This document shows, piece by piece, positions 52,998-61,997 of a DNA stretch of 64,000 nt; within the stretch, counting starts at the first letter, position 1, and each line of letters opens with the position of its first letter. The position numbers and the translations under genes are program-made. Under the pieces are notes generated by a model. That model had not been told where the DNA came from, searched no databases, and worked only from the letters and a program-made list of their open reading frames with translations. The stretch spans positions 324,669 to 388,668 of the forward strand of contig CAWJKM010000002.1 of NCBI GenBank assembly GCA_963843525.1. Reading direction: 5' to 3'. Source of the stretch: Ignavibacteriota bacterium (lineage in GTDB: Bacteria; Bacteroidota; Ignavibacteria; UBA10030; UBA6906).

Positions 52998-55928
52998 ATG
53001 GCCCCGGACGACGGCGCGAGGCAAATCGACGAGGCACGACAGAAGCTGCTTGAGGAGATCAAGAGGCGTGCCGAGGAAGCCGAGCTTCGGCGCCTCGAAG
53101 AAGAGAATTCACCCCCGACGAAGTCTACCCGGCGCCAACGGCAGGAACGCAAACGTCGGGAGTCTGCACAACCTTCGCAACCCCCCGCGCCAGAAGCCTC
53201 CCGGCAGGACAAGGCAGAGAACGAACAATCTCCTGTCGAACCACCTGTTTCCACTTCGCCGGTCACGGGGTCTTTTGTCCCCGAGCCACCTTCAAGCGGG
53301 ATCCCTTCGATTAATTTTTCAGGTTCCGACCTCCTTGGACCTGTAACCCCTTCCCATGAGACGCCCGAATCCGGATCATTCACTGGAGACCCGGGAAAAA
53401 TTGACTCATTTGAGCCGAAACTACCTCCGGTCGAACCGCCGGCGCGCCAGGATTTTGATCGGAGCTCCTTTTTCCAGGATACTCCTCTGTCCGGGCTGAA
53501 GGAAACCGAACCACAGGTTCCCGGGCCTTTTTCGTCTGAAGATTCAGTGGCGAGACCCTCCGGCGAAGAATCGGGGGGCAGCAACCTTCCACCGATCGAT
53601 CTCTCCATTCCTTCGCCTCACGAGGAAACAAGCTCCGACGTGGATGCGCGGATAGCAGAGCTGCGAGTGGAGTTCTCCCGATCGATCGACCTTGGAAACC
53701 GTGATGCAGCCCGACAGATTCTTGACGAGTGCATGACGCTGGACATGGAGCGGAGCGAAATCACTTCGATGCAGCTGATTCTCGAGCGTCTTGAAGATGA
53801 TCTGCTCGCCACGCACCCTCCATCGACCGATGAAGGCGTTGCAGGGTTAACTGAGCCCGAGCTGCCTGTGGAGGCGGAACCTCCCGGAGTCTCTGTGTCG
53901 TCAGAACCTGAACCGCCTGCTGAACCGGCTGCAGACCCGCAGCAGATGATAGAACTCCTGCATCAGGCGGAATTCAACTATCAGCACGAGCGTTACGCTG
54001 CTGCGATGGAAACGCTCGCTTCCATTCTCAGCGTCGACCCGGGCAACGCGGACGCGCAAACTCTGATGCACGAAGTGCAGAGGGCGAATGATTTGACAGA
54101 ACGGATCGCCCAGGAAGACGCTCGCTCGCGGGAATCCCTGAGCGCTTCTCCTGCAGAGACGCCCAAACAAAAGGAGGCCCCCTCAGAGGCGGATGTGTGG
54201 GGAGCATCGGTCAGACCGTTCGACTCGACGGCCATTGAGACCCTGCCGGGACAAGAAGGACCGATGCCGGTCCGCAGACCCGCTCTGGGATCCGGCCTGT
54301 TCCCCAGACTGGCAAACTTTGCCCGTTTTCTCAGGCCGCTCGCGATCGTTGTCGGCGTCGCGGTGGTTGTCGCAGTGGGATACTATCTTGTCCGGGGTGT
54401 TTCTTCCTCCGTCGTCCCTTCGCGGGCATCGATTGTGATTCTTCCCGGCATCACGATGGGTGGCGATCCCTCTCTGGCGCAGCTTGCAGATGGATTTTCC
54501 GATGATGTCATCAGGAAACTCGGAATGGTGGCCGATCTCCAGGTGATCGCTCCCGTGTCCTCGTACGCTGCGGGCGCGTCCTCCTGGTCGCCTCCGCAAA
54601 CCGCGCGCGCTGTCGGTGCGAGCATGTGCCTGACGTGGAATTTTTCCGACGGCCCCTCGGGCTTCCAGATTCAGCAATCACTTTTCGACTCCTCCTCGTC
54701 GACGCCCATTTGGACGAAGACGATGAGTTTTCCCGATAGCAGTCTGAATGTCGAGCGGTCGGAGATATTGGACGGCTTGTTGACGGCAATCGGCGTCCAT
54801 GCCGGTGAAGAAGAGCAGGTCGCGTTGCATAAGATCCCTACGACTCGTGTCGAGGCGTACAGATCGTATCTTCGCGGACGGGCGATCGTGGGTCATCCGG
54901 ATGTCTATCCGCTCACAAATGCGATCGAGGAATTTGGACGGGCGATCGCGTTCGATTCGTTGTTTGCCGAGGCCTATGCTGCGCTCGGGTGGACGCGGAT
55001 TCTCGCTTATGAGCGTGGGGACACATCAGGGGCACAGTTGTCGGATGCCGTGGCGTGCGTCCAGCGTGCGGTCTCGCTCGGCTTCAGGAATGCAGAGACC
55101 TTCCGTGCCTGGGGCGCGATCGAACGCATTCAGGGTCATTTTGAGAAAGCGGCAGAGCGATTCGACCAGGCGACGCAAATTGCCCCCAGCGATGCGGAGG
55201 CCCGTCGACGCCTCGCGCTGGTACAGAGTATCAGGGGGCAAATCGAACAGTCGATTGCATCCGCGCAACGGGCGCGAAAAGACGATCCCCTGAATCCCGA
55301 CTCGTACATTCTCCTCGGACTCCTGCAAAAATATTCTGCGATTGCGAACGGTGACAATGCGGAGGATTTTGCCCGGGCACTGGCGACATTCCAGGCCGGA
55401 GAGCAGTATGCGAAAGACCGGAGCGACTACGCCAGCCGGTACATCGCCGTTCTTCAGTGGTATCTTCAGAGTCCCGATGACGCAGTGGCCATACTTTCCG
55501 ATCATCTTGCGAGAAGCCGCCAGAGTTACGAAAGCCTGTACATGCTCGGCCGCGTCCAGCAAGCCGCAGGTCATCCGAAACAGGAATGGCAGGACGTACT
55601 TTCGCGCTCCAAGGCGGCCCTCCAGGCAGAATTGCGGACGAAACCGGGGGACCCTGTGCTCCTTTCGTGGTTAGGACTGGTTGAAACCAGGCTCGGCGAA
55701 TTCAAAGAGGCACTCGCCGCCTCGCAACGCGCGTTGGCTACCGCTCCGCAAAATGCAAACGTGCTCTACAATACCGCCCGGTTGTACGCGCTGCAGCGAA
55801 ATTTCAATCAGGCCGTCGACTATCTTCGGAAAGCGGTTGATAGAAAATACGATCTGATTACAGTTCTTGACATGGATTTTTTCAATCTTCATGGGGATCA
55901 AGCCTACCTCAAGGCGATTGTGCGCTAA
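52998..55928 (+). CDS. Large membrane-anchored protein: about 440-aa disordered acidic/Pro-rich N-terminus, single TM, TolB-N-like module, C-terminal TPR domain
   Basis: TM helix LRPLAIVVGVAVVVAVGYYLV. Post-TM segment IVILPGITMGGDPSLAQLADGFSDDVIRKLGMVADLQVIAPVSS resembles the TolB-N-like module of CadC/adenylate-cyclase/STK-associated TPR proteins. Multiple TPR-like repeats to the C-terminus. Confidence 0.6.
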   Translation: MAPDDGARQIDEARQKLLEEIKRRAEEAELRRLEEENSPPTKSTRRQRQERKRRESAQPSQPPAPEASRQDKAENEQSPVEPPVSTSPVTGSFVPEPPSSGIPSINFSGSDLLGPVTPSHETPESGSFTGDPGKIDSFEPKLPPVEPPARQDFDRSSFFQDTPLSGLKETEPQVPGPFSSEDSVARPSGEESGGSNLPPIDLSIPSPHEETSSDVDARIAELRVEFSRSIDLGNRDAARQILDECMTLDMERSEITSMQLILERLEDDLLATHPPSTDEGVAGLTEPELPVEAEPPGVSVSSEPEPPAEPAADPQQMIELLHQAEFNYQHERYAAAMETLASILSVDPGNADAQTLMHEVQRANDLTERIAQEDARSRESLSASPAETPKQKEAPSEADVWGASVRPFDSTAIETLPGQEGPMPVRRPALGSGLFPRLANFARFLRPLAIVVGVAVVVAVGYYLVRGVSSSVVPSRASIVILPGITMGGDPSLAQLADGFSDDVIRKLGMVADLQVIAPVSSYAAGASSWSPPQTARAVGASMCLTWNFSDGPSGFQIQQSLFDSSSSTPIWTKTMSFPDSSLNVERSEILDGLLTAIGVHAGEEEQVALHKIPTTRVEAYRSYLRGRAIVGHPDVYPLTNAIEEFGRAIAFDSLFAEAYAALGWTRILAYERGDTSGAQLSDAVACVQRAVSLGFRNAETFRAWGAIERIQGHFEKAAERFDQATQIAPSDAEARRRLALVQSIRGQIEQSIASAQRARKDDPLNPDSYILLGLLQKYSAIANGDNAEDFARALATFQAGEQYAKDRSDYASRYIAVLQWYLQSPDDAVAILSDHLARSRQSYESLYMLGRVQQAAGHPKQEWQDVLSRSKAALQAELRTKPGDPVLLSWLGLVETRLGEFKEALAASQRALATAPQNANVLYNTARLYALQRNFNQAVDYLRKAVDRKYDLITVLDMDFFNLHGDQAYLKAIVR

Positions 55929-56062: not shown

Positions 56063-58342
56063 TTGTCTGTGGCTGAACTCGACGAAGCGACCCGGCAAGA
56101 GCAACGAAAGAAGGCCGGTGACTATTTAAAGATGGCCGACAAGCTGTTCAAGGGTGGGGATCTCAACGGTGCCACCCGGCTTGTACAGATGGCCATGGCG
56201 GTCGACCCACAGAACCCGTACGTCAATGCGTATGCAGAACGGTTGAAGATCGCCGCCTCTCAAAAGGCGAGTCAATCGTTGGATGCTCCTCCGACCCCTG
56301 CTCCCCCGGCGCCTTCAGGGAGATCCTCTGGAACCGCCCCCGTGACTGCTTCAGGGACACGCCCTCCCGGCGAAAAGCCGGCAGCGCCCCCGCCGACTCC
56401 CCTGACGGCGTCCCAGCAACGTTCCATACCTCCCGACGCGCACGGCCGTGCGTTGGAACAGGAGATGCGCCGGAACGCTGAAGTCGAAGCCCGGAAGATG
56501 GCACACGATGACCAGGTCCGCAAATCTGTGGAAGATGAATACCGGCCCAAACTGGAAGAGGCGGTGCGAGTCATCGAGGACTATCGCCGCCGTCTCGAGG
56601 AAGAGAAGCGGCGGCGGACCGAGCTGGAGACGGAATACCGGGAGCTTTCGACCGCGAGGGAGGGGCAATTCCAGGAGGAATTGGACCAACGGATCGACAG
56701 CGAACAGAAACGCCTGGAGGCGGAATTCGCCGCCCGTCTGCGGGTTGAGAAGGCTGCAGTGGAGGAGGTGACGGGAAAACGGAAAGCGCAGGAGGAGCGC
56801 TCGCGTGCGCTCGAAGAAAGCCGGCGCATCATTGAAGCGGAGAAAATCCGCATTCAGCGGGAGATGGAGACGCGGCTCACGGAAGAGCGGGCACAACTCC
56901 AGAATTTGCGGGTTCAGGAGGAGGCGGCGTTGGCCGAACGGAGGAAAACCGCAGAGCTGCAGCTCAGGCAGCTTCAGGAGGACCTCCACCGGAAAATGCA
57001 GGAAGAATTAAGCGCGACGCGGGACCGTCTGGAAGAGGACGCGCGCCGGCAACTCGCCGCGGAACATCGCCGGCTCGAGGAAACGCGTGCACGCGAATCT
57101 GCCGAAGCAAAAGAGGCCCATCGTCATTTTGAAGAGGAGACGCGGCGTCGGATGGAAGAGGAACTCGCGAAACGGCTTGCGAAAGAACGCGCGAACCTCG
57201 AAGCCGAAACGCGCCGTCAATTGGACATCGAACGCGTTCGCATTGAGGAAGACGCATACCGGAGAGCAGAGGAGGCGGGGAAGGCCCAACGGGATGAGCA
57301 GGAACGTGTGGCCGCGGAATTACGCGCAAAAGCTGAGGAAGAACGGCGAAGAAAGGAAGAAGAGCAGGAACGGCAGCTGCGATCGGAGGCCGAAGAAACG
57401 CGACGGTACGAGGAGGCGGTCCGGCAGGCAATTGATGAGGGAAGGCGTGTCGCGCAGGCGAAAACGGTCCGGGGGTACCTCGACCAGGCGGCGATCGCTC
57501 TCGAGAACCAGCGTTTCGACGAAGCACTTCAGGATATTACCAGGGCTCTCCGTCTTGAACCTTCGAACCCCGAAGGCCAGGAACTTGAAAAACGGGTCTA
57601 CGCGGTCCGCGATGAAACCTCCCGCCAGAAGGAACAGCAGGAGCGCAGAACCGAACAGCGTCGTCGTCTCGAGGAACTCCAGCGACGTCTCGAGGAACAG
57701 ACCAAACGCGATGCCGAAGAACAGAAGGCGCGGGCGATCCGTGAGGCAAAACTCGCCGCACTTCTTCGCCGGACCAAGGAGCTTCAACGGTCAGGGCAGT
57801 TTGAAGCCGCACTGAAGGAGCTCAATAACCTCTATCAGATCGATCCGGGGAGTCCCGCGGGCCGCGAAATTGAAATCGGCATAATTGCGACGCAGCAATC
57901 GCGGGTGGACGCGGAGGCAATCTCCGCCCGGAGATCTGCGGAGAGCGAAACGTGGCGAAGAGAGGAAGAAGGTCGTGAACTGGAGCGTCAGGCAGATCGC
58001 GAACGATTGAAGCAAGATGCGTTCGAGTCCTACCGGAGCATGCTCAAGCAGTCCTGGGTCAACGGAATTCCCGCGAGCGACGAGCGCGCAATGATTGAAG
58101 TAATCCGGCTTTCGCTCGGAATCTCGGATGAGGACCGCGACTCGCTGGAAAAAGAGATTCGGGCGGAATGCTATGCAGACGCTTTCCGGTCGGCGCAACG
58201 CAACGGTATTGTTGTCGCAGACGACGAACACGCGCTCGCGCCCCTGCGGCAGGTCTTCGACCTCCAGACAGACGAGGCACGACAGATCGAGGCGGACGTC
58301 CTTCGTGAAACCGAGACGCGCACCTCCTCGGCGGTCGAGTAG
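56063..58342 (+). CDS. Large coiled-coil protein: TPR-like ends flanking about 450 aa of E/R/A/K-rich (ER-repeat, single-alpha-helix-like) sequence
   Basis: No ATG until 56132; the ORF-track start is a TTG at 56063 and a GTG follows at 56069. The central region is an extremely charged heptad-like run (EEEKRRRTELETEYRE...), with TPR-like helices at both ends. Confidence 0.55.
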   Translation: MSVAELDEATRQEQRKKAGDYLKMADKLFKGGDLNGATRLVQMAMAVDPQNPYVNAYAERLKIAASQKASQSLDAPPTPAPPAPSGRSSGTAPVTASGTRPPGEKPAAPPPTPLTASQQRSIPPDAHGRALEQEMRRNAEVEARKMAHDDQVRKSVEDEYRPKLEEAVRVIEDYRRRLEEEKRRRTELETEYRELSTAREGQFQEELDQRIDSEQKRLEAEFAARLRVEKAAVEEVTGKRKAQEERSRALEESRRIIEAEKIRIQREMETRLTEERAQLQNLRVQEEAALAERRKTAELQLRQLQEDLHRKMQEELSATRDRLEEDARRQLAAEHRRLEETRARESAEAKEAHRHFEEETRRRMEEELAKRLAKERANLEAETRRQLDIERVRIEEDAYRRAEEAGKAQRDEQERVAAELRAKAEEERRRKEEEQERQLRSEAEETRRYEEAVRQAIDEGRRVAQAKTVRGYLDQAAIALENQRFDEALQDITRALRLEPSNPEGQELEKRVYAVRDETSRQKEQQERRTEQRRRLEELQRRLEEQTKRDAEEQKARAIREAKLAALLRRTKELQRSGQFEAALKELNNLYQIDPGSPAGREIEIGIIATQQSRVDAEAISARRSAESETWRREEEGRELERQADRERLKQDAFESYRSMLKQSWVNGIPASDERAMIEVIRLSLGISDEDRDSLEKEIRAECYADAFRSAQRNGIVVADDEHALAPLRQVFDLQTDEARQIEADVLRETETRTSSAVE

Positions 58343-58406: not shown

Positions 58407-59270
58407 TCACGGCGCGCGCTTCGCGAGCCGTCCCGCAAGTGACCTTCTGTACAGAACGCACGTCCACCACACAAGATTCATGAATACAAGGTTGAACAGC
58501 AGGTACTGCGGAAGGGCGTCGAAGAGCGAGAAGAGCACGAGCACGATGTTCTCTGTGCCAAGTCCGAGGAACCCCGACCACCGTATGCCCACCCGATCCC
58601 CATACCAGGCCTCGTCACTCCCCCGCAGTCCTCGTTTTGCCCAGCGATCGAGCCGGACCATCATTGCATCCTGCCAGCCGTAAAGAAACAGAAAGATGCG
58701 TTGGAGCCGCCGGGTCCAGGGATCCTCGTTCAAATCCTCGGGCCGGATCTCCTCTGTTGTCCTGTTGATGGTATAGGAATTTTCGAGATGGAGGAACGAG
58801 GTGTGGTACAGCACGTGATAGGAGATGTGCAGGACGACCGAAAGAAATGCGAAGAGGGCCAGAAGAAGATACAGGTACGAACCTTCGTGCCTGCTCACAG
58901 AGATGCCGATGGAAACGAATATCGAAAGGCTGACAAAGAAATCGCCGATCGAATCGAGAAACCTTCCTTTTCTGCTGTATTGTTCCCGCGCACGCGCCAG
59001 CTGGCCGTCGGCTGCGTCGAGTGCGTCCTTTGCCAGGAGAAGGACCCCTGCGACTTGCGTCGTTGTCGTGGTGCCACCGGAGTAGACCCATGCACTCAGA
59101 AAACCGACAAGGATTGCCGCGACGGTGACCTGGTTCGGCGTCGCCGGGGTCGGGTACAGGATTCTTACCAGCACGCCGGCGATCGGCCGGACAAAGTACA
59201 CGTTGATCAATTCATCGGATTGATCGGATTTCTTTGACCGGCTGTAGGAATAGGGCTTCCGTGTTTTCAT
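58407..59270 (-). CDS. CDP-alcohol phosphatidyltransferase family membrane protein
   Basis: Conserved motif D-G-x2-A-R-x8-G-x3-D-x3-D: DAADGQLARAREQYSRKGRFLDSIGDFFVS. Polytopic membrane protein. ATGA overlap with the upstream nucleotidyltransferase. Confidence 0.8.
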   Translation of the reverse strand: MKTRKPYSYSRSKKSDQSDELINVYFVRPIAGVLVRILYPTPATPNQVTVAAILVGFLSAWVYSGGTTTTTQVAGVLLLAKDALDAADGQLARAREQYSRKGRFLDSIGDFFVSLSIFVSIGISVSRHEGSYLYLLLALFAFLSVVLHISYHVLYHTSFLHLENSYTINRTTEEIRPEDLNEDPWTRRLQRIFLFLYGWQDAMMVRLDRWAKRGLRGSDEAWYGDRVGIRWSGFLGLGTENIVLVLFSLFDALPQYLLFNLVFMNLVWWTCVLYRRSLAGRLAKRAP

Positions 59271-59986
59271 AATCCCAGGGTCAAAGCAAGTGCCGAGGCC
59301 ACCCGCAGGTCGTCGGGCGTATCGATTTCCATGCAGGGGAGTCCTTGCGTCGAAACCGCCGCGATTCGCGCCCCCCTGTCGATGATCTCCTGAAATGATG
59401 CCTCATAGAATTCGTCCTGTTCCTTGCGCCGGTCGAGGACGCGGAAGAGCTGCCGTGCAGTCTCCCGGCTGAACATCTCGATCCCGATCGATTCGCCTGC
59501 CGCCCGTGAAGGTGTAATTGCCTTGCCAATCTGGCGGACATACGGCCCGTCGAGTGCCACCTTGATTTCTTCTGCGCCCAGCCGGTCGTCTTCTCTCATG
59601 AGAAGTGCATCGGGAACCGGGCTGGCAAGGAGGAGGTGAAGGAGGTGAGGATCAAAGAGGATATCGGCGTCAAGGAGAAGGATGCTGTTGTCGCCGGTCT
59701 CCCGGCCCGCCAACCAGAGAGAATAGTTGTTGTTGGTGGTTGCGTACTTCTCATTGTGGACAAAACGCACGGGCATCGCAAGCCCGAGCGAGCGAACAGC
59801 TTCCTCGACAAGCGGTTGAAGATATCCGGTGACGAGAACGCACTCGGCAAGTCCCGCCGATTGAAGCGCAGAGAGGGTTCGTGGAAGAAGAGATTGGTGC
59901 CCGACGGGGAGAAGGCATTTCGGCAGGTGATCGGTAAGAGGGCGCATCCGGGAACCAACACCCGCTGCCAGAAGTATGCCGGTCAT
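59267..59986 (-). CDS. Sugar/alcohol-phosphate nucleotidyltransferase (NTP_transferase fold; LicC / IPCT-like cytidylyltransferase)
   Basis: N-terminal MTGILLAAGVGSRMRPLT (GxGxR(x)nP NTP-binding motif). 239 aa. Sits between the aminotransferase and a CDP-alcohol phosphatidyltransferase. Confidence 0.8.
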   Translation of the reverse strand: MTGILLAAGVGSRMRPLTDHLPKCLLPVGHQSLLPRTLSALQSAGLAECVLVTGYLQPLVEEAVRSLGLAMPVRFVHNEKYATTNNNYSLWLAGRETGDNSILLLDADILFDPHLLHLLLASPVPDALLMREDDRLGAEEIKVALDGPYVRQIGKAITPSRAAGESIGIEMFSRETARQLFRVLDRRKEQDEFYEASFQEIIDRGARIAAVSTQGLPCMEIDTPDDLRVASALALTLGL

Positions 59987-59991
59987 GGATC

Positions 59992-61059
59992 CTACGCATT
60001 CTCCGGATTCATGACGGACAGATGAAGCCGCCGCGCGGCGACCTCTTTGAACGCGTCGATGACCCGTGTATTCTGTTCGGAAGTGCCAATCGTGATCCGG
60101 ATGCAGTCTTCCAATCCCGGGTCGTCAAGGAATTTCACGATGATTCCGGCCCGCTCCAATCCCTCTTTCATCTCCCGTTTTCTGTCGACCGGATAGCGCA
60201 CCAGAAGGAAATTTGCATCGGAGCGAAATGGTGTGAACCCTTCAATGGTCGCAAGTTCCCGGGTGTACCTGAGCATGTCCTGGTGCATCGCCGTTGCCAT
60301 CGAAGTGTAATAGTCAGGCTCATCAAGTGCGGCAAGGGCAATCTTTTCGGAAAGCTGGTTGTACCCGAGATACCGCGCGCTGAACGTCACAAGCTGCTCA
60401 AGGTCTTCGCCGGCGCACGCATAGCCGATCCTCAATCCCGCGAGGGCATAATATTTCGAAAACGTTCGCAGAACCAGGAGACGGTCGTAACGCGCGAGAA
60501 GCTTGCCCGGGTGGCTGGTGCCATTGCCGGCGAACCCATGGTACGCTTCATCGAGGACGATGATCGAGGAGGCGCAATGATCCACAATATGGTCAAGGGC
60601 CTCCGGGGAGAGGCTGTTGCCCGTGGGATTATTGGGGGATGCGATGAGGATCACGCGCGGACGGTGGAGGTCATAGAGGCGAAGGATCTCCTCTTCGTCA
60701 TGTTCGAACCGGCCGTTTCGCTCCCTGATCGAATAGTGTTCTTCGCGCCCGAAGACTTCTTTTGCCACCGATTTGTAGTACCACCATGACTGGTTGGGAA
60801 GAAGAATTACCTCGTCCCGGTGAAGATAGCAGTGGACGACCTGTTTCAGCATATCCTCGCTGCCGTAGCTGAGGAGGATTTGTTTCTCCGGAATGCCCAG
60901 GTCGGTGCTCAATCGTTCCGAGAGCTCGCTCTTCTTCCCGCGCATATAGGAGCGGGAATAAAGACTGAGCTGTTCCAGCCGCGCTTCCCGCAGGACCCGA
61001 TAGCACGAGGGTGCTGGCCCGTACTGGTTCTCGTTTCTGTCAAGATAGAGGGTAGTCAT
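59992..61059 (-). CDS. HisC/CobD-family PLP-dependent aminotransferase or decarboxylase (class I/II aminotransferase fold)
   Basis: LDRNENQYGP N-terminus is typical of histidinol-phosphate aminotransferase / threonine-phosphate decarboxylase. PLP lysine in RTFSKYYALAGLRIGY. Start ATG 61059; the ORF-track start is 61200. Confidence 0.8.
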   Translation of the reverse strand: MTTLYLDRNENQYGPAPSCYRVLREARLEQLSLYSRSYMRGKKSELSERLSTDLGIPEKQILLSYGSEDMLKQVVHCYLHRDEVILLPNQSWWYYKSVAKEVFGREEHYSIRERNGRFEHDEEEILRLYDLHRPRVILIASPNNPTGNSLSPEALDHIVDHCASSIIVLDEAYHGFAGNGTSHPGKLLARYDRLLVLRTFSKYYALAGLRIGYACAGEDLEQLVTFSARYLGYNQLSEKIALAALDEPDYYTSMATAMHQDMLRYTRELATIEGFTPFRSDANFLLVRYPVDRKREMKEGLERAGIIVKFLDDPGLEDCIRITIGTSEQNTRVIDAFKEVAARRLHLSVMNPENA

Positions 61060-61096
61060 AGACCGATGCCCATTGGAAGGAAACCGACGATTTCTT

Positions 61097-61309
61097 TCAA
61101 GCAGAGATTTGTTCTTCTTGCGCGCTGACCGTCTCCAGCGCGAGATCCAGACGGTGTTGAACGGCCCGTTGCCAGAGCTGCATGCCGATGAGGTACACAT
61201 TTCCGGCGGTTGCGACGATCCAGCAAAACACTCCCGGATCCCCCGCCAGCGCCGCCAGGATCAGCCCGGTCCGGTTTGTGGTGGCGCCGAGAATAGTCCA
61301 CCATCGCAT
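61097..61309 (-). CDS. Possible small two-TM membrane protein within the operon gap (low confidence)
   Basis: MRWWTILGATTNRTGLILAALAG...VFCWIVATAGNVYLIGMQLW. It fits the gap between the CDP-alcohol transferase stop and the aminotransferase start. No homology is recognised. Confidence 0.3.
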   Translation of the reverse strand: MRWWTILGATTNRTGLILAALAGDPGVFCWIVATAGNVYLIGMQLWQRAVQHRLDLALETVSAQEEQISA

Positions 61310-61319
61310 GGGTTTTGCA

Positions 61320-61997
61320 TTATACGTCCTGAACAACTCCGGCGGGACGAGGCGTTTCTCTCCGGAGTCGTTCGGACCGGGCCTGAAGTGCCATGTATCT
61401 CAGGTAGATCTGGAGGGCAAGCCGTTTTCCGATCCATACCCCCGATTCTTCACTGCGCTGCAACTCTTTTTCCGCTCTTGCGAATTCGTCGGCGAGAAAA
61501 TTCGCTTTCCCCTTGATGGCCGCGATATACGCCTGCTGGCGATAATCAAATACGATGGCATGAAGGGCCGAGGTAAAGCCCCCTGCGGCGGCCAGCCACC
61601 ACATGGACGGGTCGCTCGTGTATTTCGTGAGGCCTACTCCTACACCAACGAAGATTGCCACGCTGAGTGCCCAGTCGGCAACGCCGTCGACGAGCCGGCC
61701 GAAAGGACTGCCGCTATTCTGAAGTCTGGCGAGCATTCCGTCGGCGCAGTCGAGAACGTTCGCGATTGCATACCACATTCCTGCAAATGCAAAACCGGAA
61801 ACCGTTCCCTGTGCGAAACACCACGCAGATGCAAAACCCGCGAGAAGGGAAAGAAACGTTACCTGGTTCGGCGTGACTGGAAGACGATAAATGGTCTTCA
61901 CAAAGACGAAGGCAATGGGTCTGTAGAAGAAGAGGTCTAAGACCTCCTCAGCTTCGGCCATCTTGAGAGAAATCCGGTATTCTGATAGGAGAGACAT
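61320..61997 (-). CDS. Second CDP-alcohol phosphatidyltransferase family membrane protein (paralog)
   Basis: DCADGMLARLQNSGSPFGRLVDGVADWA matches DG-x2-AR-x8-G-x3-D-x3-D. The N-terminus RPIAFVFVKTIYRLPVTPNQVT parallels the other paralog. Start is uncertain (ATG 61997 or 61961). Confidence 0.75.
   Translation of the reverse strand: MSLLSEYRISLKMAEAEEVLDLFFYRPIAFVFVKTIYRLPVTPNQVTFLSLLAGFASAWCFAQGTVSGFAFAGMWYAIANVLDCADGMLARLQNSGSPFGRLVDGVADWALSVAIFVGVGVGLTKYTSDPSMWWLAAAGGFTSALHAIVFDYRQQAYIAAIKGKANFLADEFARAEKELQRSEESGVWIGKRLALQIYLRYMALQARSERLRRETPRPAGVVQDV

What the first reader, a model, noticed from the sequence alone, without database searches (positions are those of the whole stretch)
58407..61997. 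Candidate operon for an unusual polar head group: two CDP-alcohol phosphatidyltransferases bracketing a HisC/CobD-like PLP enzyme and a LicC-like nucleotidyltransferase
Five tightly packed minus-strand genes, with 5-nt gaps or ATGA overlaps, read as CDP-OH transferase, small 2-TM ORF, HisC-family PLP enzyme, NTP-transferase, CDP-OH transferase. From established enzymology, the HisC/CobD family makes amino-alcohol phosphates (histidinol-P; aminopropanol-P from Thr-P). LicC/IPCT-type enzymes convert X-phosphate plus CTP to CDP-X. CDP-alcohol phosphatidyltransferases either move X-phosphate onto diacylglycerol or ceramide, or move a phosphatidyl group onto an alcohol. Together this predicts synthesis of a CDP-activated amino-alcohol and its incorporation into a phospholipid or sphingolipid. 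The logic resembles LicC plus CPT for phosphatidylcholine, or IPCT plus DIPPS, but with an aminotransferase-derived head group. Two transferase paralogs suggest either two acceptors or a two-step route through a phosphorylated intermediate. I do not recognise this exact gene combination as a described pathway.
Basis: partly seen in the sequence, partly recalled or inferred. Interest (0 to 1): 0.72.

Follow-up and report, generated by a model that had tools for sequence, protein, structure and literature searches.

The report
Uncharacterised amino-alcohol lipid head-group operon
A conserved, never-characterised four-gene operon of Ignavibacteria/Bacteroidota most likely makes a small amino-alcohol phosphate, activates it with CTP and attaches it to membrane lipids, which would be either a new lipid head group or a new bacterial route to a known one.

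Summary
The cluster is real, but it has four genes, not five. The "small 2-TM ORF" is the C-terminus of the first CDP-alcohol transferase, cut off by a 1-base indel in this assembly. An independent assembly and all relatives have one ORF of about 290-300 aa.

The PLP enzyme is not HisC. It keeps the PLP residues and most of the phosphate site, lacks the N-terminal lid and has a rebuilt, invariant side-chain pocket (E68, SWWYY, RYLG). The nucleotidyltransferase has the LicC fold but has lost the choline aromatic box. Both transferases have an intact catalytic motif. They are closest to AF2299/DIPPS and far from PgsA/PssA.

The trio of PLP enzyme, NTP-transferase and one or two transferases is syntenic in most of about 150 loci, down to about 30% identity. 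A sister subfamily occurs as NTP-transferase-aminotransferase fusions, one of them next to LicD. In Bacteroidales-type loci the trio directly follows serine palmitoyltransferase.

Best reading: a Kennedy-type pathway (X-phosphate, then CDP-X, then lipid-P-X) acting on diacylglycerol and/or ceramide. X is unresolved: serinol phosphate from DHAP, or phosphoethanolamine from phosphoserine. I found no published description. Everything about function is inferred.

The parts
61097..61997 (-). Transferase A: CDP-alcohol phosphatidyltransferase paralog 1 (about 299 aa once repaired).
   Evidence: PF01066 E=3.8e-13. The motif DCADGMLAR-x8-G-x3-D-x3-D is read directly from the sequence. Relatives have one ORF of 287-304 aa. 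An independent assembly has one 287-aa ORF. It is 39% identical to E over the catalytic 120 residues.
61346..61383 (-). Interval containing a 1-base indel that splits transferase A into two reading frames.
   Evidence: The A frame matches relatives up to ...YMALQ. The B frame matches from VPPELFRTYN...MRWWT. The ATG-to-stop span is 865 nt in the window and 864 nt in the Logan contig. Removing one base, for example in the AAA run at 61357-61355, gives ...LQARSERLRRERLVPPELF...
59992..61059 (-). Gene C: HisC-like fold-type I PLP enzyme (355 aa), the founding member here of a distinct 'SWWYY/RYLG' subfamily. Proposed maker of the amino-alcohol phosphate.
   Evidence: PF00155 E=7e-38. TIGR01141 hisC 235.6 bits is below the 276.55 cutoff, and TIGR01140 CobD 133 bits is below 290.55. 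Invariant K202, D170, Y173, N144, R210 and R321 are kept. The lid Tyr is absent, and E68, S91-W-W-Y-Y95 and R229-Y-L-G232 are invariant in 120 clusters. AF2 model pLDDT 83; the fold matches HisC and CobD about equally (TM 0.81-0.84).
59267..59986 (-). Gene D: LicC-fold nucleotidyltransferase (239 aa). Proposed CTP:X-phosphate cytidylyltransferase.
   Evidence: PF12804/PF00483. LicC 1JYK E=9.4e-17 over the full length. LicC D105, D107, E216 and D218 are conserved, but the choline box is lost in 68 orthologs: F88 to N/A/S, W136 to a gap, Y190 to S/A, D192 to Q/E. The marker residues come from PMC6697681.
58407..59270 (-). Transferase E: CDP-alcohol phosphatidyltransferase paralog 2 (287 aa). It is the transferase found in most C-D-E loci.
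   Evidence: PF01066 E=5.9e-13. The motif DAADGQLAR-x8-G-x3-D-x3-D is read directly. The closest solved proteins are AF2299 and IPCT/DIPPS, by sequence and by fold (AF2 pLDDT 88.6). Best NCBIfam hits are all far below cutoff. Homologs carry only generic names.

Best explanation
This is a self-contained, Kennedy-type head-group pathway.

- Step 1 (inferred): the PLP enzyme C converts a central phospho-metabolite into a small amino-alcohol phosphate X-P. My leading candidate is dihydroxyacetone phosphate + glutamate giving serinol phosphate by transamination (about 35%). Next is O-phosphoserine giving phosphoethanolamine by decarboxylation (about 30%). Another 2-oxoalkyl phosphate accounts for the remainder.
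- Step 2 (inferred, the best supported step): the LicC-fold enzyme D makes CDP-X from CTP and X-P.
- Step 3 (inferred): the membrane transferases E and A move X-phosphate from CDP-X onto a lipid alcohol and release CMP.

E and A are old paralogs that each suffice alone in other lineages. I therefore read them as serving two acceptors: E-type probably diacylglycerol, and A-type probably (dihydro)ceramide. None of the steps has been shown experimentally.
For: (1) Anatomy: four co-directional genes with 37-nt, 5-nt and overlapping junctions, isolated by divergent and convergent neighbours.

(2) Conservation: the C family was found at 527 places in one-genome-per-species GTDB contigs. C, D and an A/E transferase are adjacent in 56/71 and 32/41 loci with flank, down to about 30% identity of C. 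Gene order varies (C-D-E, C-A-D, A-C-D-E, C-A-D-E) while the other neighbours change.

(3) Fusions: P0179, P0180, P0202 and P0259 are NTP-transferase + HisC-like fusions from the sister subfamily, and P0180 sits next to a LicD phospho-alcohol transferase. This indicates that the PLP step and the cytidylyl step are consecutive.

(4) C is an active PLP enzyme with the phosphate-binding Arg of RITIG and a Lys in place of the second Arg. The HisC imidazole determinants named in PMC4703992 are replaced (Tyr25 lid absent, Asn103 to E68, Tyr127 to W92, Met129 to Y94, Tyr261* to L231), and it scores below the NCBIfam HisC and CobD cutoffs.

(5) No kinase is present in the module, so the substrate should already be phosphorylated. 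Precedents exist in this enzyme family: Cj1437 (DHAP to serinol-P) and Cj1436 (Ser-P to ethanolamine-P) (PMC12409886).

(6) D keeps LicC's catalytic residues but not its choline box.

(7) A and E have the complete CDP-alcohol motif and are nearest to AF2299 and IPCT-DIPPS (DIPPS uses soluble CDP-inositol as donor), ahead of CDP-DAG-dependent PIP/PGP synthases.

(8) The A-type module directly follows a serine palmitoyltransferase (NF047600 699 bits, cutoff 640), GNAT-like genes and an SDR in 8 loci. The E-type never does.

(9) Precedent for CDP-activated sphingolipid head groups in bacteria: Caulobacter CpgD/CpgA (PMC13228409).
Against: There are no experimental data for any member.
- Sequence and fold cannot separate a transaminase from a decarboxylase here. 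HisC and CobD structures match equally well, and SMUL_1544 (a Ser-P decarboxylase) scores within the HisC range.
- The nearest characterised transferase, DIPPS, makes a soluble product, so a lipid acceptor is not proven.
- The spt linkage covers only 8 of about 150 loci, and no spt, bCerS-like or CerR-like gene lies in the window or near the Ignavibacteria-type loci.
- The sister subfamily is linked to LicD, i.e. glycan decoration, so CDP-X could have non-lipid destinations.
- In the window one of the two transferases is frameshifted.
- The assignment of E to DAG and A to ceramide rests only on neighbourhood.
Confidence: 0.58

Rival explanations
1. Same pathway architecture, but C is an O-phosphoserine decarboxylase (like Cj1436 or SMUL_1544). 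The module would then be a de novo bacterial CDP-ethanolamine route: P-Ser to P-Etn to CDP-Etn to phosphatidylethanolamine (E-type) and phosphoethanolamine-dihydroceramide (A-type). That is a known lipid made by an undescribed bacterial route.
For: Decarboxylases of this fold exist and are as close structurally as HisC (PMC12409886). Phosphoserine is a central metabolite and needs no kinase. PE-DHC is the common sphingophospholipid of Bacteroides, and the review read names no enzyme for its head-group attachment (PMC10191378). The Spt-GNAT-SDR-C-A-D run would form a complete operon for it. The bulky invariant W/W/Y/Y pocket fits a substrate with almost no side chain. From my own knowledge, Drosophila CPE synthase is a CDP-alcohol-family enzyme that uses CDP-ethanolamine and ceramide.
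Against: C scores much higher on the HisC model than on the CobD model (235.6 against 133 bits) and has the HisC-type N-E-N motif. No cultured gut Bacteroides species appeared among the 120 closest protein clusters or the best 80 of the 527 genome loci, yet all tested Bacteroides make PE-DHC, so this module is not the general route. D's pocket is rich in polar N/S/Q residues and does not have the two-Glu arrangement that PntC uses for a bare primary amine.
Confidence: 0.3
2. The transferases act like DIPPS. CDP-X is coupled to a soluble phospho-alcohol to give a phosphodiester compatible solute, not a membrane lipid.
For: The best NCBIfam, sequence and fold neighbours include IPCT/DIPPS, and D also hits the IPCT domain (1.8e-19).
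Against: All scores are far below family cutoffs. No inositol-phosphate synthase or phosphatase is in the module. The carriers are MAGs from fen, soil, groundwater and lake samples (record titles), not the hyperthermophiles in which, to my knowledge, such phosphodiester solutes are known. The A-type lies next to spt, a LysE-like membrane protein and DedA, which points to membrane lipid chemistry.
Confidence: 0.07
3. CDP-X is used to decorate a cell-surface glycan or lipopolysaccharide (a Lic- or Pnt-type tailoring pathway) rather than bulk membrane lipid.
For: The sister subfamily fusion P0180 sits next to a LicD-family transferase. LicC and PntC pathways use the same activation logic (PMC6697681).
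Against: In the C-type loci the partner transferase is always of the CDP-OH_P_transf family. Its characterised members listed are phospholipid-synthesis enzymes, apart from DIPPS, which makes a solute. No glycosyltransferase, flippase or LicD recurs in about 150 loci.
Confidence: 0.04
4. There is no special pathway: a housekeeping HisC and housekeeping phospholipid synthases (PgsA/PssA) merely lie next to each other.
For: Annotation pipelines call C 'histidinol-phosphate aminotransferase' and E 'phosphatidylglycerophosphate synthase'.
Against: HisC membership fails on the score cutoff, the lid and the pocket residues. PgsA/PssA models score about 22 bits against cutoffs of 107-109. No his genes are adjacent. 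The trio is co-inherited across deep divergence while all other neighbours change.
Confidence: 0.01

Closest known systems
Kennedy-type CDP-alcohol pathways (eukaryotic ECT/EPT and CCT/CPT; bacterial LicC plus choline phosphotransferase as in Treponema; Drosophila CPE synthase)
   Same: Same two-step logic: X-phosphate + CTP gives CDP-X, then a CDP-alcohol-family membrane enzyme moves X-phosphate onto diacylglycerol or ceramide. D has the LicC fold. A and E have the family motif.
   Different: The head-group phosphate is not salvaged by a kinase. It appears to be made de novo by a dedicated PLP enzyme encoded in the operon. D lacks the choline box. A and E are not close to CPT/EPT (xlCHPT1 ranks 18th by fold).
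IPCT/DIPPS and AF2299 (archaeal CDP-alcohol phosphotransferases that act on soluble CDP-alcohols)
   Same: These are the closest solved relatives of E by sequence and by fold. D also resembles the IPCT domain. The pairing of a nucleotidyltransferase with a transferase is the same.
   Different: Scores are far below family cutoffs (35-70 bits against 580). D and the transferase are not fused. No inositol-phosphate synthase is present. E and A carry about 100 extra residues, including a C-terminal hairpin. The DIPPS product is a solute.
Bacteroides vulgatus-type putative alternative inositol-lipid cluster (MIPS + NTP-transferase + CDP-alcohol transferase + HAD; Heaver et al. 2022, PMC9246714)
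   Same: A Bacteroidota cluster with the same proposed Kennedy-like logic. It is itself still unconfirmed, and it is linked to sphingolipid head groups.
   Different: The head-group-forming enzyme there is inositol-phosphate synthase, whereas here it is a HisC-like PLP enzyme. There is no HAD gene here. L061 and L090 carry a second NTP-transferase/CDP-OH transferase/LPG_synthase_TM set next to the C-A-D module, so the two systems appear to be distinct and can co-occur.
Campylobacter jejuni Cj1437 (DHAP to serinol phosphate) and Cj1436 (serine phosphate to ethanolamine phosphate)
   Same: They are PLP-dependent enzymes; from my own recollection, not stated in the passages read, they belong to the HisC/CobD family. 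They make exactly the kind of small amino-alcohol phosphate proposed here from central metabolites (PMC12409886).
   Different: Their products are amide-linked to capsular glucuronic acid and are not CDP-activated. I could not obtain their sequences, so the relationship to the SWWYY subfamily is untested.
Caulobacter ceramide diphosphoglycerate pathway (CpgD cytidylyltransferase plus CpgA)
   Same: A bacterial sphingolipid head group built from a central phospho-metabolite that is CDP-activated. CpgD shares structural homology with choline-phosphate cytidylyltransferase (PMC13228409).
   Different: The head group is phosphoglycerate, no PLP enzyme is involved, and the acceptor is ceramide phosphoglycerate.
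PntC-AepX (Treponema denticola Tde1415) phosphonate tailoring fusion
   Same: A natural fusion of a LicC-like cytidylyltransferase with an aminotransferase that makes the amino head group (PMC6697681). It is analogous to fusions P0179, P0180, P0202 and P0259.
   Different: The aminotransferase there is class V and acts on a phosphonate. PEP mutase is required, and none is present here.

Membership tests
Histidinol-phosphate aminotransferase HisC (TIGR01141) | Score at or above NCBIfam's curated equivalog cutoff | tested here: not met
   235.6 bits against a cutoff of 276.55.
Histidinol-phosphate aminotransferase HisC (TIGR01141) | N-terminal lid carrying the substrate-contacting Tyr (Mtb Tyr25 / E. 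coli Tyr20) | tested here: not met
   There are only about 8 residues before the N-E-N motif in 120 family clusters, against about 29 in HisC-range representatives.
Histidinol-phosphate aminotransferase HisC (TIGR01141) | Imidazole-pocket residues (Asn/Asp after G-[SA], Tyr/Phe stacking on PLP, Met, and Pro-Tyr from the partner subunit) | tested here: not met
   These are replaced by invariant E68, W92, Y94 and Y230-L231. HisC domains fused to HisG or HAD read D, F-x-[LM]-F and P-[YF].
Histidinol-phosphate aminotransferase HisC (TIGR01141) | Fold-type I PLP chemistry residues (Schiff-base Lys, Asp to N1, Tyr/Asn to O3', Arg to the PLP phosphate) and the substrate phosphate/carboxylate Arg | tested here: met
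   K202, D170, Y173, N144, R210 and R321 are invariant. The second phosphate Arg is K309. The fold matches at TM 0.82-0.84.
Histidinol-phosphate aminotransferase HisC (TIGR01141) | Genomic association with his genes | tested here: not met
   The neighbours are D, A/E, PfkA, UvrD, acetate kinase, Rho and similar genes. No his genes occur in about 150 loci.
Threonine-phosphate decarboxylase CobD (TIGR01140) / serine-phosphate decarboxylases | Score at or above the curated cutoff, and a cobamide-gene context | tested here: not met
   133 bits against a cutoff of 290.55. No cob genes are nearby. Decarboxylase chemistry itself cannot be excluded from sequence or fold.
LicC, CTP:phosphocholine cytidylyltransferase | Nucleotidyltransferase fold with the N-terminal G-x-G-[ST]-R...P-K signature and the metal/catalytic acids (D105, D107, E216, D218) | tested here: met
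   1JYK E=9.4e-17 over residues 3-228. All four acids are conserved in at least 64 of 68 orthologs.
LicC, CTP:phosphocholine cytidylyltransferase | Aromatic box and small Asp (D192) that accommodate the quaternary amine of choline | tested here: not met
   F88 to N/A/S, W136 to a gap, Y190 to S/A, W191 to F and D192 to Q/E across 68 orthologs. The markers come from PMC6697681.
CDP-alcohol phosphatidyltransferase superfamily (PF01066) | D-x2-D-G-x2-A-R-x8-G-x3-D-x3-D motif and a Pfam score above the gathering threshold | tested here: met
   A: DCADGMLAR..G..D...D, 50.6 bits. E: DAADGQLAR..G..D...D, 49.9 bits. The cutoff is 22.
Housekeeping PgsA / PssA | Equivalog-level score (TIGR00560 109 bits, TIGR00473 107 bits) | tested here: not met
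   21-23 bits for both A and E.
IPCT/DIPPS and archaetidylinositol-/phosphatidylinositol-phosphate synthases | Equivalog-level score, and co-occurrence with inositol-1-phosphate synthase | tested here: not met
   The best scores are 35-58 bits against cutoffs of 170-580. No inositol-phosphate synthase turned up among the neighbours that were annotated; the full gene sets of the loci were not screened for it.
Kennedy-type pathway (functional class, not a sequence family) | CDP-X formed from X-phosphate and CTP, then X-phosphate transferred to diacylglycerol or ceramide | not testable with these tools
   Only gene content, synteny and fusions support it. It needs enzyme assays and lipidomics.
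Bacterial sphingolipid synthesis cluster (Spt, bCerS, CerR) | Serine palmitoyltransferase at equivalog level adjacent to the module | tested here: inconclusive
   Met in Bacteroidales-type loci: L030 Spt 699 bits against a cutoff of 640, plus L029, L031-33, L061, L090 and L122. Not met in the window or in the flanks of Ignavibacteria-type loci. Orthology of the GNAT-like and SDR genes to bCerS and CerR was not tested; only their family class is consistent.

The most novel reading that the evidence does not exclude
The module makes a head group not yet known on any natural membrane lipid: serinol phosphate, or another 2-amino-polyol phosphate made by transaminating a ketose-1-phosphate-type metabolite. 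It would place that head group on both glycerolipids (E-type) and dihydroceramides (A-type). That would define a new class of aminophospholipids and sphingophospholipids spread across hundreds of Ignavibacteriota and Bacteroidota species, together with a new substrate-specific branch of the HisC family (the SWWYY/RYLG signature).
Probability: 0.3. Interest if true: 0.82.

Novelty: new variant of a known kind. Interest (0 to 1): 0.64.

Why it matters
If the reading is right, hundreds of environmental FCB-group species carry a compact, transferable three-enzyme cassette that builds a lipid head group de novo from central metabolism. It would do this without the CDP-diacylglycerol route that textbooks give for bacteria.

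Either outcome is useful. One is a previously unseen amino-alcohol head group, with consequences for membrane charge, environmental lipid biomarkers and possibly host signalling by Bacteroidota sphingolipids. The other is the first de novo bacterial CDP-ethanolamine pathway and a candidate for head-group attachment on bacterial phosphoethanolamine ceramides.

It also corrects systematic mis-annotation. Thousands of database entries are labelled 'histidinol-phosphate aminotransferase' or 'phosphatidylglycerophosphate synthase'. Finally, the work gives a simple sequence signature for recognising the PLP subfamily.

Tried and rejected
- Small ORF as a separate gene: rejected.
- Bona fide HisC, and PgsA/PssA: rejected by cutoffs and residues.
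- Informative conserved neighbours in Ignavibacteria-type loci: only synteny noise was found (PfkA, UvrD split ORFs, acetate kinase, Rho, DUF192, PPK1).
- Spt, GNAT-like or SDR homologs in the window or Ignavibacteria loci: none.
- A second HisC-like gene or another CDP-OH transferase paralog in the window: none.
- Literature searches for the gene combination, CDP-serinol, phosphatidylserinol, aminopentanetetrol biosynthesis, Ignavibacteria polar lipids, a bacterial CDP-ethanolamine route and a PE-ceramide synthase: no description was found. The library covers open-access papers only.
- Aminopentanetetrol as the head group: considered and set aside. From memory its amine is terminal, which does not fit HisC-type chemistry, and no carrier lineage is known for it.
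- The primary Cj1436/Cj1437 paper (PMC8524856) is not held, so no sequence comparison with those enzymes was possible.
- Fold search of C: it cannot separate HisC from CobD.
- Fold search of E: only modest TM-scores (0.39-0.54), which gives an order of relatives rather than a substrate call.
- Two context look-ups of distant representatives landed on contigs under 2 kb and were uninformative.
- The sigma-70 promoter scan gave nothing on the operon strand; that consensus may not apply to this phylum.
- Rfam and tRNA scans of the window found nothing.

Full report
**1. What is in the sequence**

ORF listing, Pfam and NCBIfam scans and direct reading confirm a compact minus-strand cluster between 58407 and 61997:
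- a CDP-alcohol phosphatidyltransferase (A, ATG at 61997);
- a HisC-like class I/II PLP enzyme (C, 61059-59992, 355 aa);
- an NTP-transferase (D, 59986-59267, 239 aa);
- a second CDP-alcohol phosphatidyltransferase (E, 59270-58407, 287 aa).

The junctions are 37 nt, 5 nt and an ATGA overlap. A divergent PfkA-like gene and a convergent coiled-coil gene bound the cluster, so it is a self-contained operon. NCBI labels the source a Bacteroidota MAG, and the closest relatives are Ignavibacteriota/Bacteroidota MAGs.

**2. The fifth gene is an artefact**

In the nearest relatives (L001-L004, L012) and in distant ones (L030, L074), the residues of the 'small 2-TM ORF' are the C-terminus of a single 287-304 aa transferase. 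In the window the frame of A agrees with relatives up to ...YMALQ. The frame of the small ORF agrees from VPPELFRTYN...MRWWT onwards. An independent short-read assembly (Logan, ERR12037368) that encodes the identical C protein has one 287-aa CDP-OH transferase ORF ending 37 nt before C. Its ATG-to-stop distance is 864 nt, against 865 nt in the window. A 1-base indel between 61383 and 61346 therefore splits gene A here. This is most likely an assembly error, or otherwise a strain-level pseudogene.

**3. The PLP enzyme is a distinct subfamily, not HisC**

C is below the curated cutoffs of both HisC (235.6 against 276.55) and CobD (133 against 290.55). I aligned 120 family clusters and 150 representatives from an exhaustive profile search and used the specificity residues described for M. 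tuberculosis HspAT (PMC4703992) and the HISN6 alignment.

- The PLP-chemistry residues are invariant: K202, D170, Y173, N144 and R210.
- The phosphate/carboxylate Arg (R321) is invariant, and the second phosphate Arg is a Lys (K309).
- The N-terminal lid with its Tyr is missing.
- The imidazole pocket is replaced by invariant E68, S-W-W-Y-Y (91-95) and R-Y-L-G (229-232).
- True HisC domains, recognisable because they are fused to HisG or to a HAD phosphatase, read D, F-x-[LM]-F and P-[YF] at these positions.

The signature persists down to about 29-35% identity, so this is an old and large subfamily. An AlphaFold model (pLDDT 83) matches HisC and CobD structures about equally well (TM 0.81-0.84). 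Fold therefore does not tell transaminase from decarboxylase.

**4. The nucleotidyltransferase and the transferases**

D aligns over its full length with LicC (1JYK, E=9.4e-17). It keeps LicC's D105, D107, E216 and D218. It has lost the aromatic choline box and D192 in all 68 orthologs examined (markers from PMC6697681). So it has the LicC fold but is probably not specific for phosphocholine.

A and E both carry the complete D-x2-DG-x2-AR-x8-G-x3-D-x3-D motif. They are paralogs (39% identity over the catalytic 120 residues, and the same length and C-terminal hairpin). They score only about 22 bits on the PgsA/PssA models and 35-58 bits on the inositol-phosphate-type synthases, far below all cutoffs. 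By sequence and by fold (model pLDDT 88.6) the nearest solved proteins are AF2299 and IPCT-DIPPS, ahead of CDP-DAG-dependent PIP and PGP synthases and CHPT1. Database names are generic or pipeline guesses.

**5. The association is conserved far beyond chance**

The C family was found at 527 places in one-genome-per-species contigs. In the best 80 of these, and in 80 metagenome loci retrieved with a divergent alignment (28-36% identity), C is flanked by D and an A- or E-type transferase in 56/71 and 32/41 loci with enough flank. The order varies (C-D-E; C-A-D; A-C-D-E as in the window; C-A-D-E) while all other neighbours change.

Most lineages have only one transferase: 42 loci have E only, 39 have A only and 17 have both. 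This argues against an obligatory two-transferase route and for two acceptors. A locus at 33% identity has DedA-C-transferase-D.

**6. Two kinds of guilt by association**

(a) A sister subfamily (G-W-x-Y-Y / P-L-F-G) occurs as natural NTP-transferase + HisC-like fusions (P0179, P0180, P0202, P0259). P0180 lies next to a LicD-family phospho-alcohol transferase. This indicates that the PLP and cytidylyl steps are consecutive and that the product is a CDP-activated phospho-alcohol.

(b) In Bacteroidales-type loci the A-type module directly follows a serine palmitoyltransferase that passes NCBI's equivalog cutoff (699 against 640 bits), two paralogous GNAT-like genes and an SDR. Two further metagenome loci show the same arrangement (L090, L122). 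Bacterial ceramide synthesis uses Spt, an acyltransferase (bCerS) and an NDUFA9-like reductase (CerR) (PMC11087976), so the class of genes fits, although I did not test orthology. Spt and a recurrent LysE-like membrane protein accompany only A-type loci, never E-type. Neither the window nor the flanks of Ignavibacteria-type loci contain these sphingolipid genes.

**7. Mechanism proposed**

C makes an amino-alcohol phosphate from an already phosphorylated central metabolite, since no kinase is in the module. D converts it to CDP-X. E and A transfer X-phosphate to a lipid alcohol, with E probably acting on diacylglycerol and A probably on dihydroceramide. All three steps are inferred.

For X there are two precedented options among PLP-dependent enzymes: DHAP to serinol phosphate (Cj1437) and phosphoserine to phosphoethanolamine (Cj1436) (PMC12409886).
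- I weight transamination slightly higher. C is much closer to the HisC model than to the CobD model and has the N-E-N motif. D's pocket is polar (N/S/Q) rather than the two-Glu site PntC uses for a bare amine. No cultured gut Bacteroides species, all of which make PE-dihydroceramide (PMC10191378), appeared among the closest family members listed.
- The decarboxylase/CDP-ethanolamine variant remains a strong rival, because it would yield known lipids and makes the Spt-...-C-A-D run a complete operon.

**8. Comparison with what is known**

The logic is that of the Kennedy pathway. It also matches three other systems:
- the still-unconfirmed B. vulgatus-type inositol-lipid cluster (PMC9246714);
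- IPCT/DIPPS;
- Caulobacter CpgD/CpgA, where a cytidylyltransferase that shares structural homology with choline-phosphate cytidylyltransferase activates phosphoglycerate for a sphingolipid head group (PMC13228409).

What differs is the dedicated HisC-derived PLP enzyme as head-group source, the non-choline LicC-fold enzyme, and a separate clade of ~290-aa CDP-alcohol transferases with a conserved C-terminal hairpin. Nine literature searches found no description of this module, and no NCBIfam model claims any of its proteins.

**9. Verdict**

The head group and the acceptor are unresolved. I classify it as a new variant of a known kind: a Kennedy-type pathway fed by a new PLP subfamily. There is roughly a 30% chance that it makes a truly new lipid head group.

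Noticed in passing
window 61346-61383 (minus strand): A single-base indel splits CDP-alcohol transferase A into two frames. An independent Logan assembly of run ERR12037368 has the gene intact. It suggests this long contig (525 kb) may carry other indel errors.
   Followed up: yes
L030:10643-11464, and similar genes in L029, L031-33, L061, L090, L093, L101, L108, L113, L116, L122, L125, L126, L130, L135, L136, L141, L145, L148, L154: A LysE/RhtB-like membrane protein of about 270 aa (PF01810 on its N-terminal half) recurs immediately before C or after D. It occurs only in loci with the A-type transferase and never with the E-type. Its role is unknown; it could be an exporter of the free amino alcohol or a lipid flippase.
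   Followed up: partly
L061:11604-15753 and L090 (downstream of the C-A-D-LysE run): A second, different head-group-like set lies right next to the module: NTP-transferase (231 aa), TetR, a RimK/ATP-grasp-like protein (283 aa), another CDP-OH transferase (309 aa) and an LPG_synthase_TM protein (331 aa). This recalls the BT_1521-type neighbour of the Bacteroides inositol-lipid clusters.
   Followed up: partly
L081:6306-15395 (GCA_054273275.1): The NTP-transferase-aminotransferase fusion P0180 sits between a LicD-family gene and what looks like a complete 2-oxoacid-dehydrogenase-like set: a fused E1, a lipoyl-domain protein carrying a PglD/hexapeptide acyltransferase domain instead of a normal E2 core, a lipoate-protein ligase and E3. 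This is an unusual combination.
   Followed up: no
L065, L067, L070, L074, L077, L079; metagenome loci L109, L115, L123, L127, L134: In Ignavibacterium-type genomes (AWWYY variant of C) a DUF192 gene and polyphosphate kinase PPK1 are inserted between C and the A-D pair. A few relatives (L066, L072, L073) have C without A or D nearby.
   Followed up: partly
P0155 (595 aa, from the representative search): A C-like PLP domain (SWGYY / VYLGNN) is fused to an N-terminal hydrophobic region with hexapeptide-repeat transferase motifs. This may be a variant that N-acylates the amino alcohol.
   Followed up: no
L084:5911-11326: The DedA-C-transferase-D module of this MAG is followed directly by bacterial-microcompartment genes: PTAC, BMC shell proteins, EutN, an aldehyde dehydrogenase and an RnfC-like protein.
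   Followed up: no
window 56063-58342 (+) and 52998-55928 (+): There are two very large ORFs (759 and 976 aa) rich in E/R/K/A that look like coiled-coil or TPR-like proteins. The 56-58 kb stretch has the window's highest GC (0.607) and a strong AT skew (+0.318). Relatives keep a long ORF with no Pfam hit at the same convergent position (for example L001:10657-13944).
   Followed up: no
window 1-64000: No tRNA gene and no Rfam family at gathering threshold occur anywhere in the 64 kb.
   Followed up: yes
P0121 (479 aa representative): The top-scoring representative of the C family contains an internal tandem duplication of about 125 residues (...ELCFYTRIYDEGKK... appears twice). It is probably an assembly artefact in a low-GC relative.
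   Followed up: no
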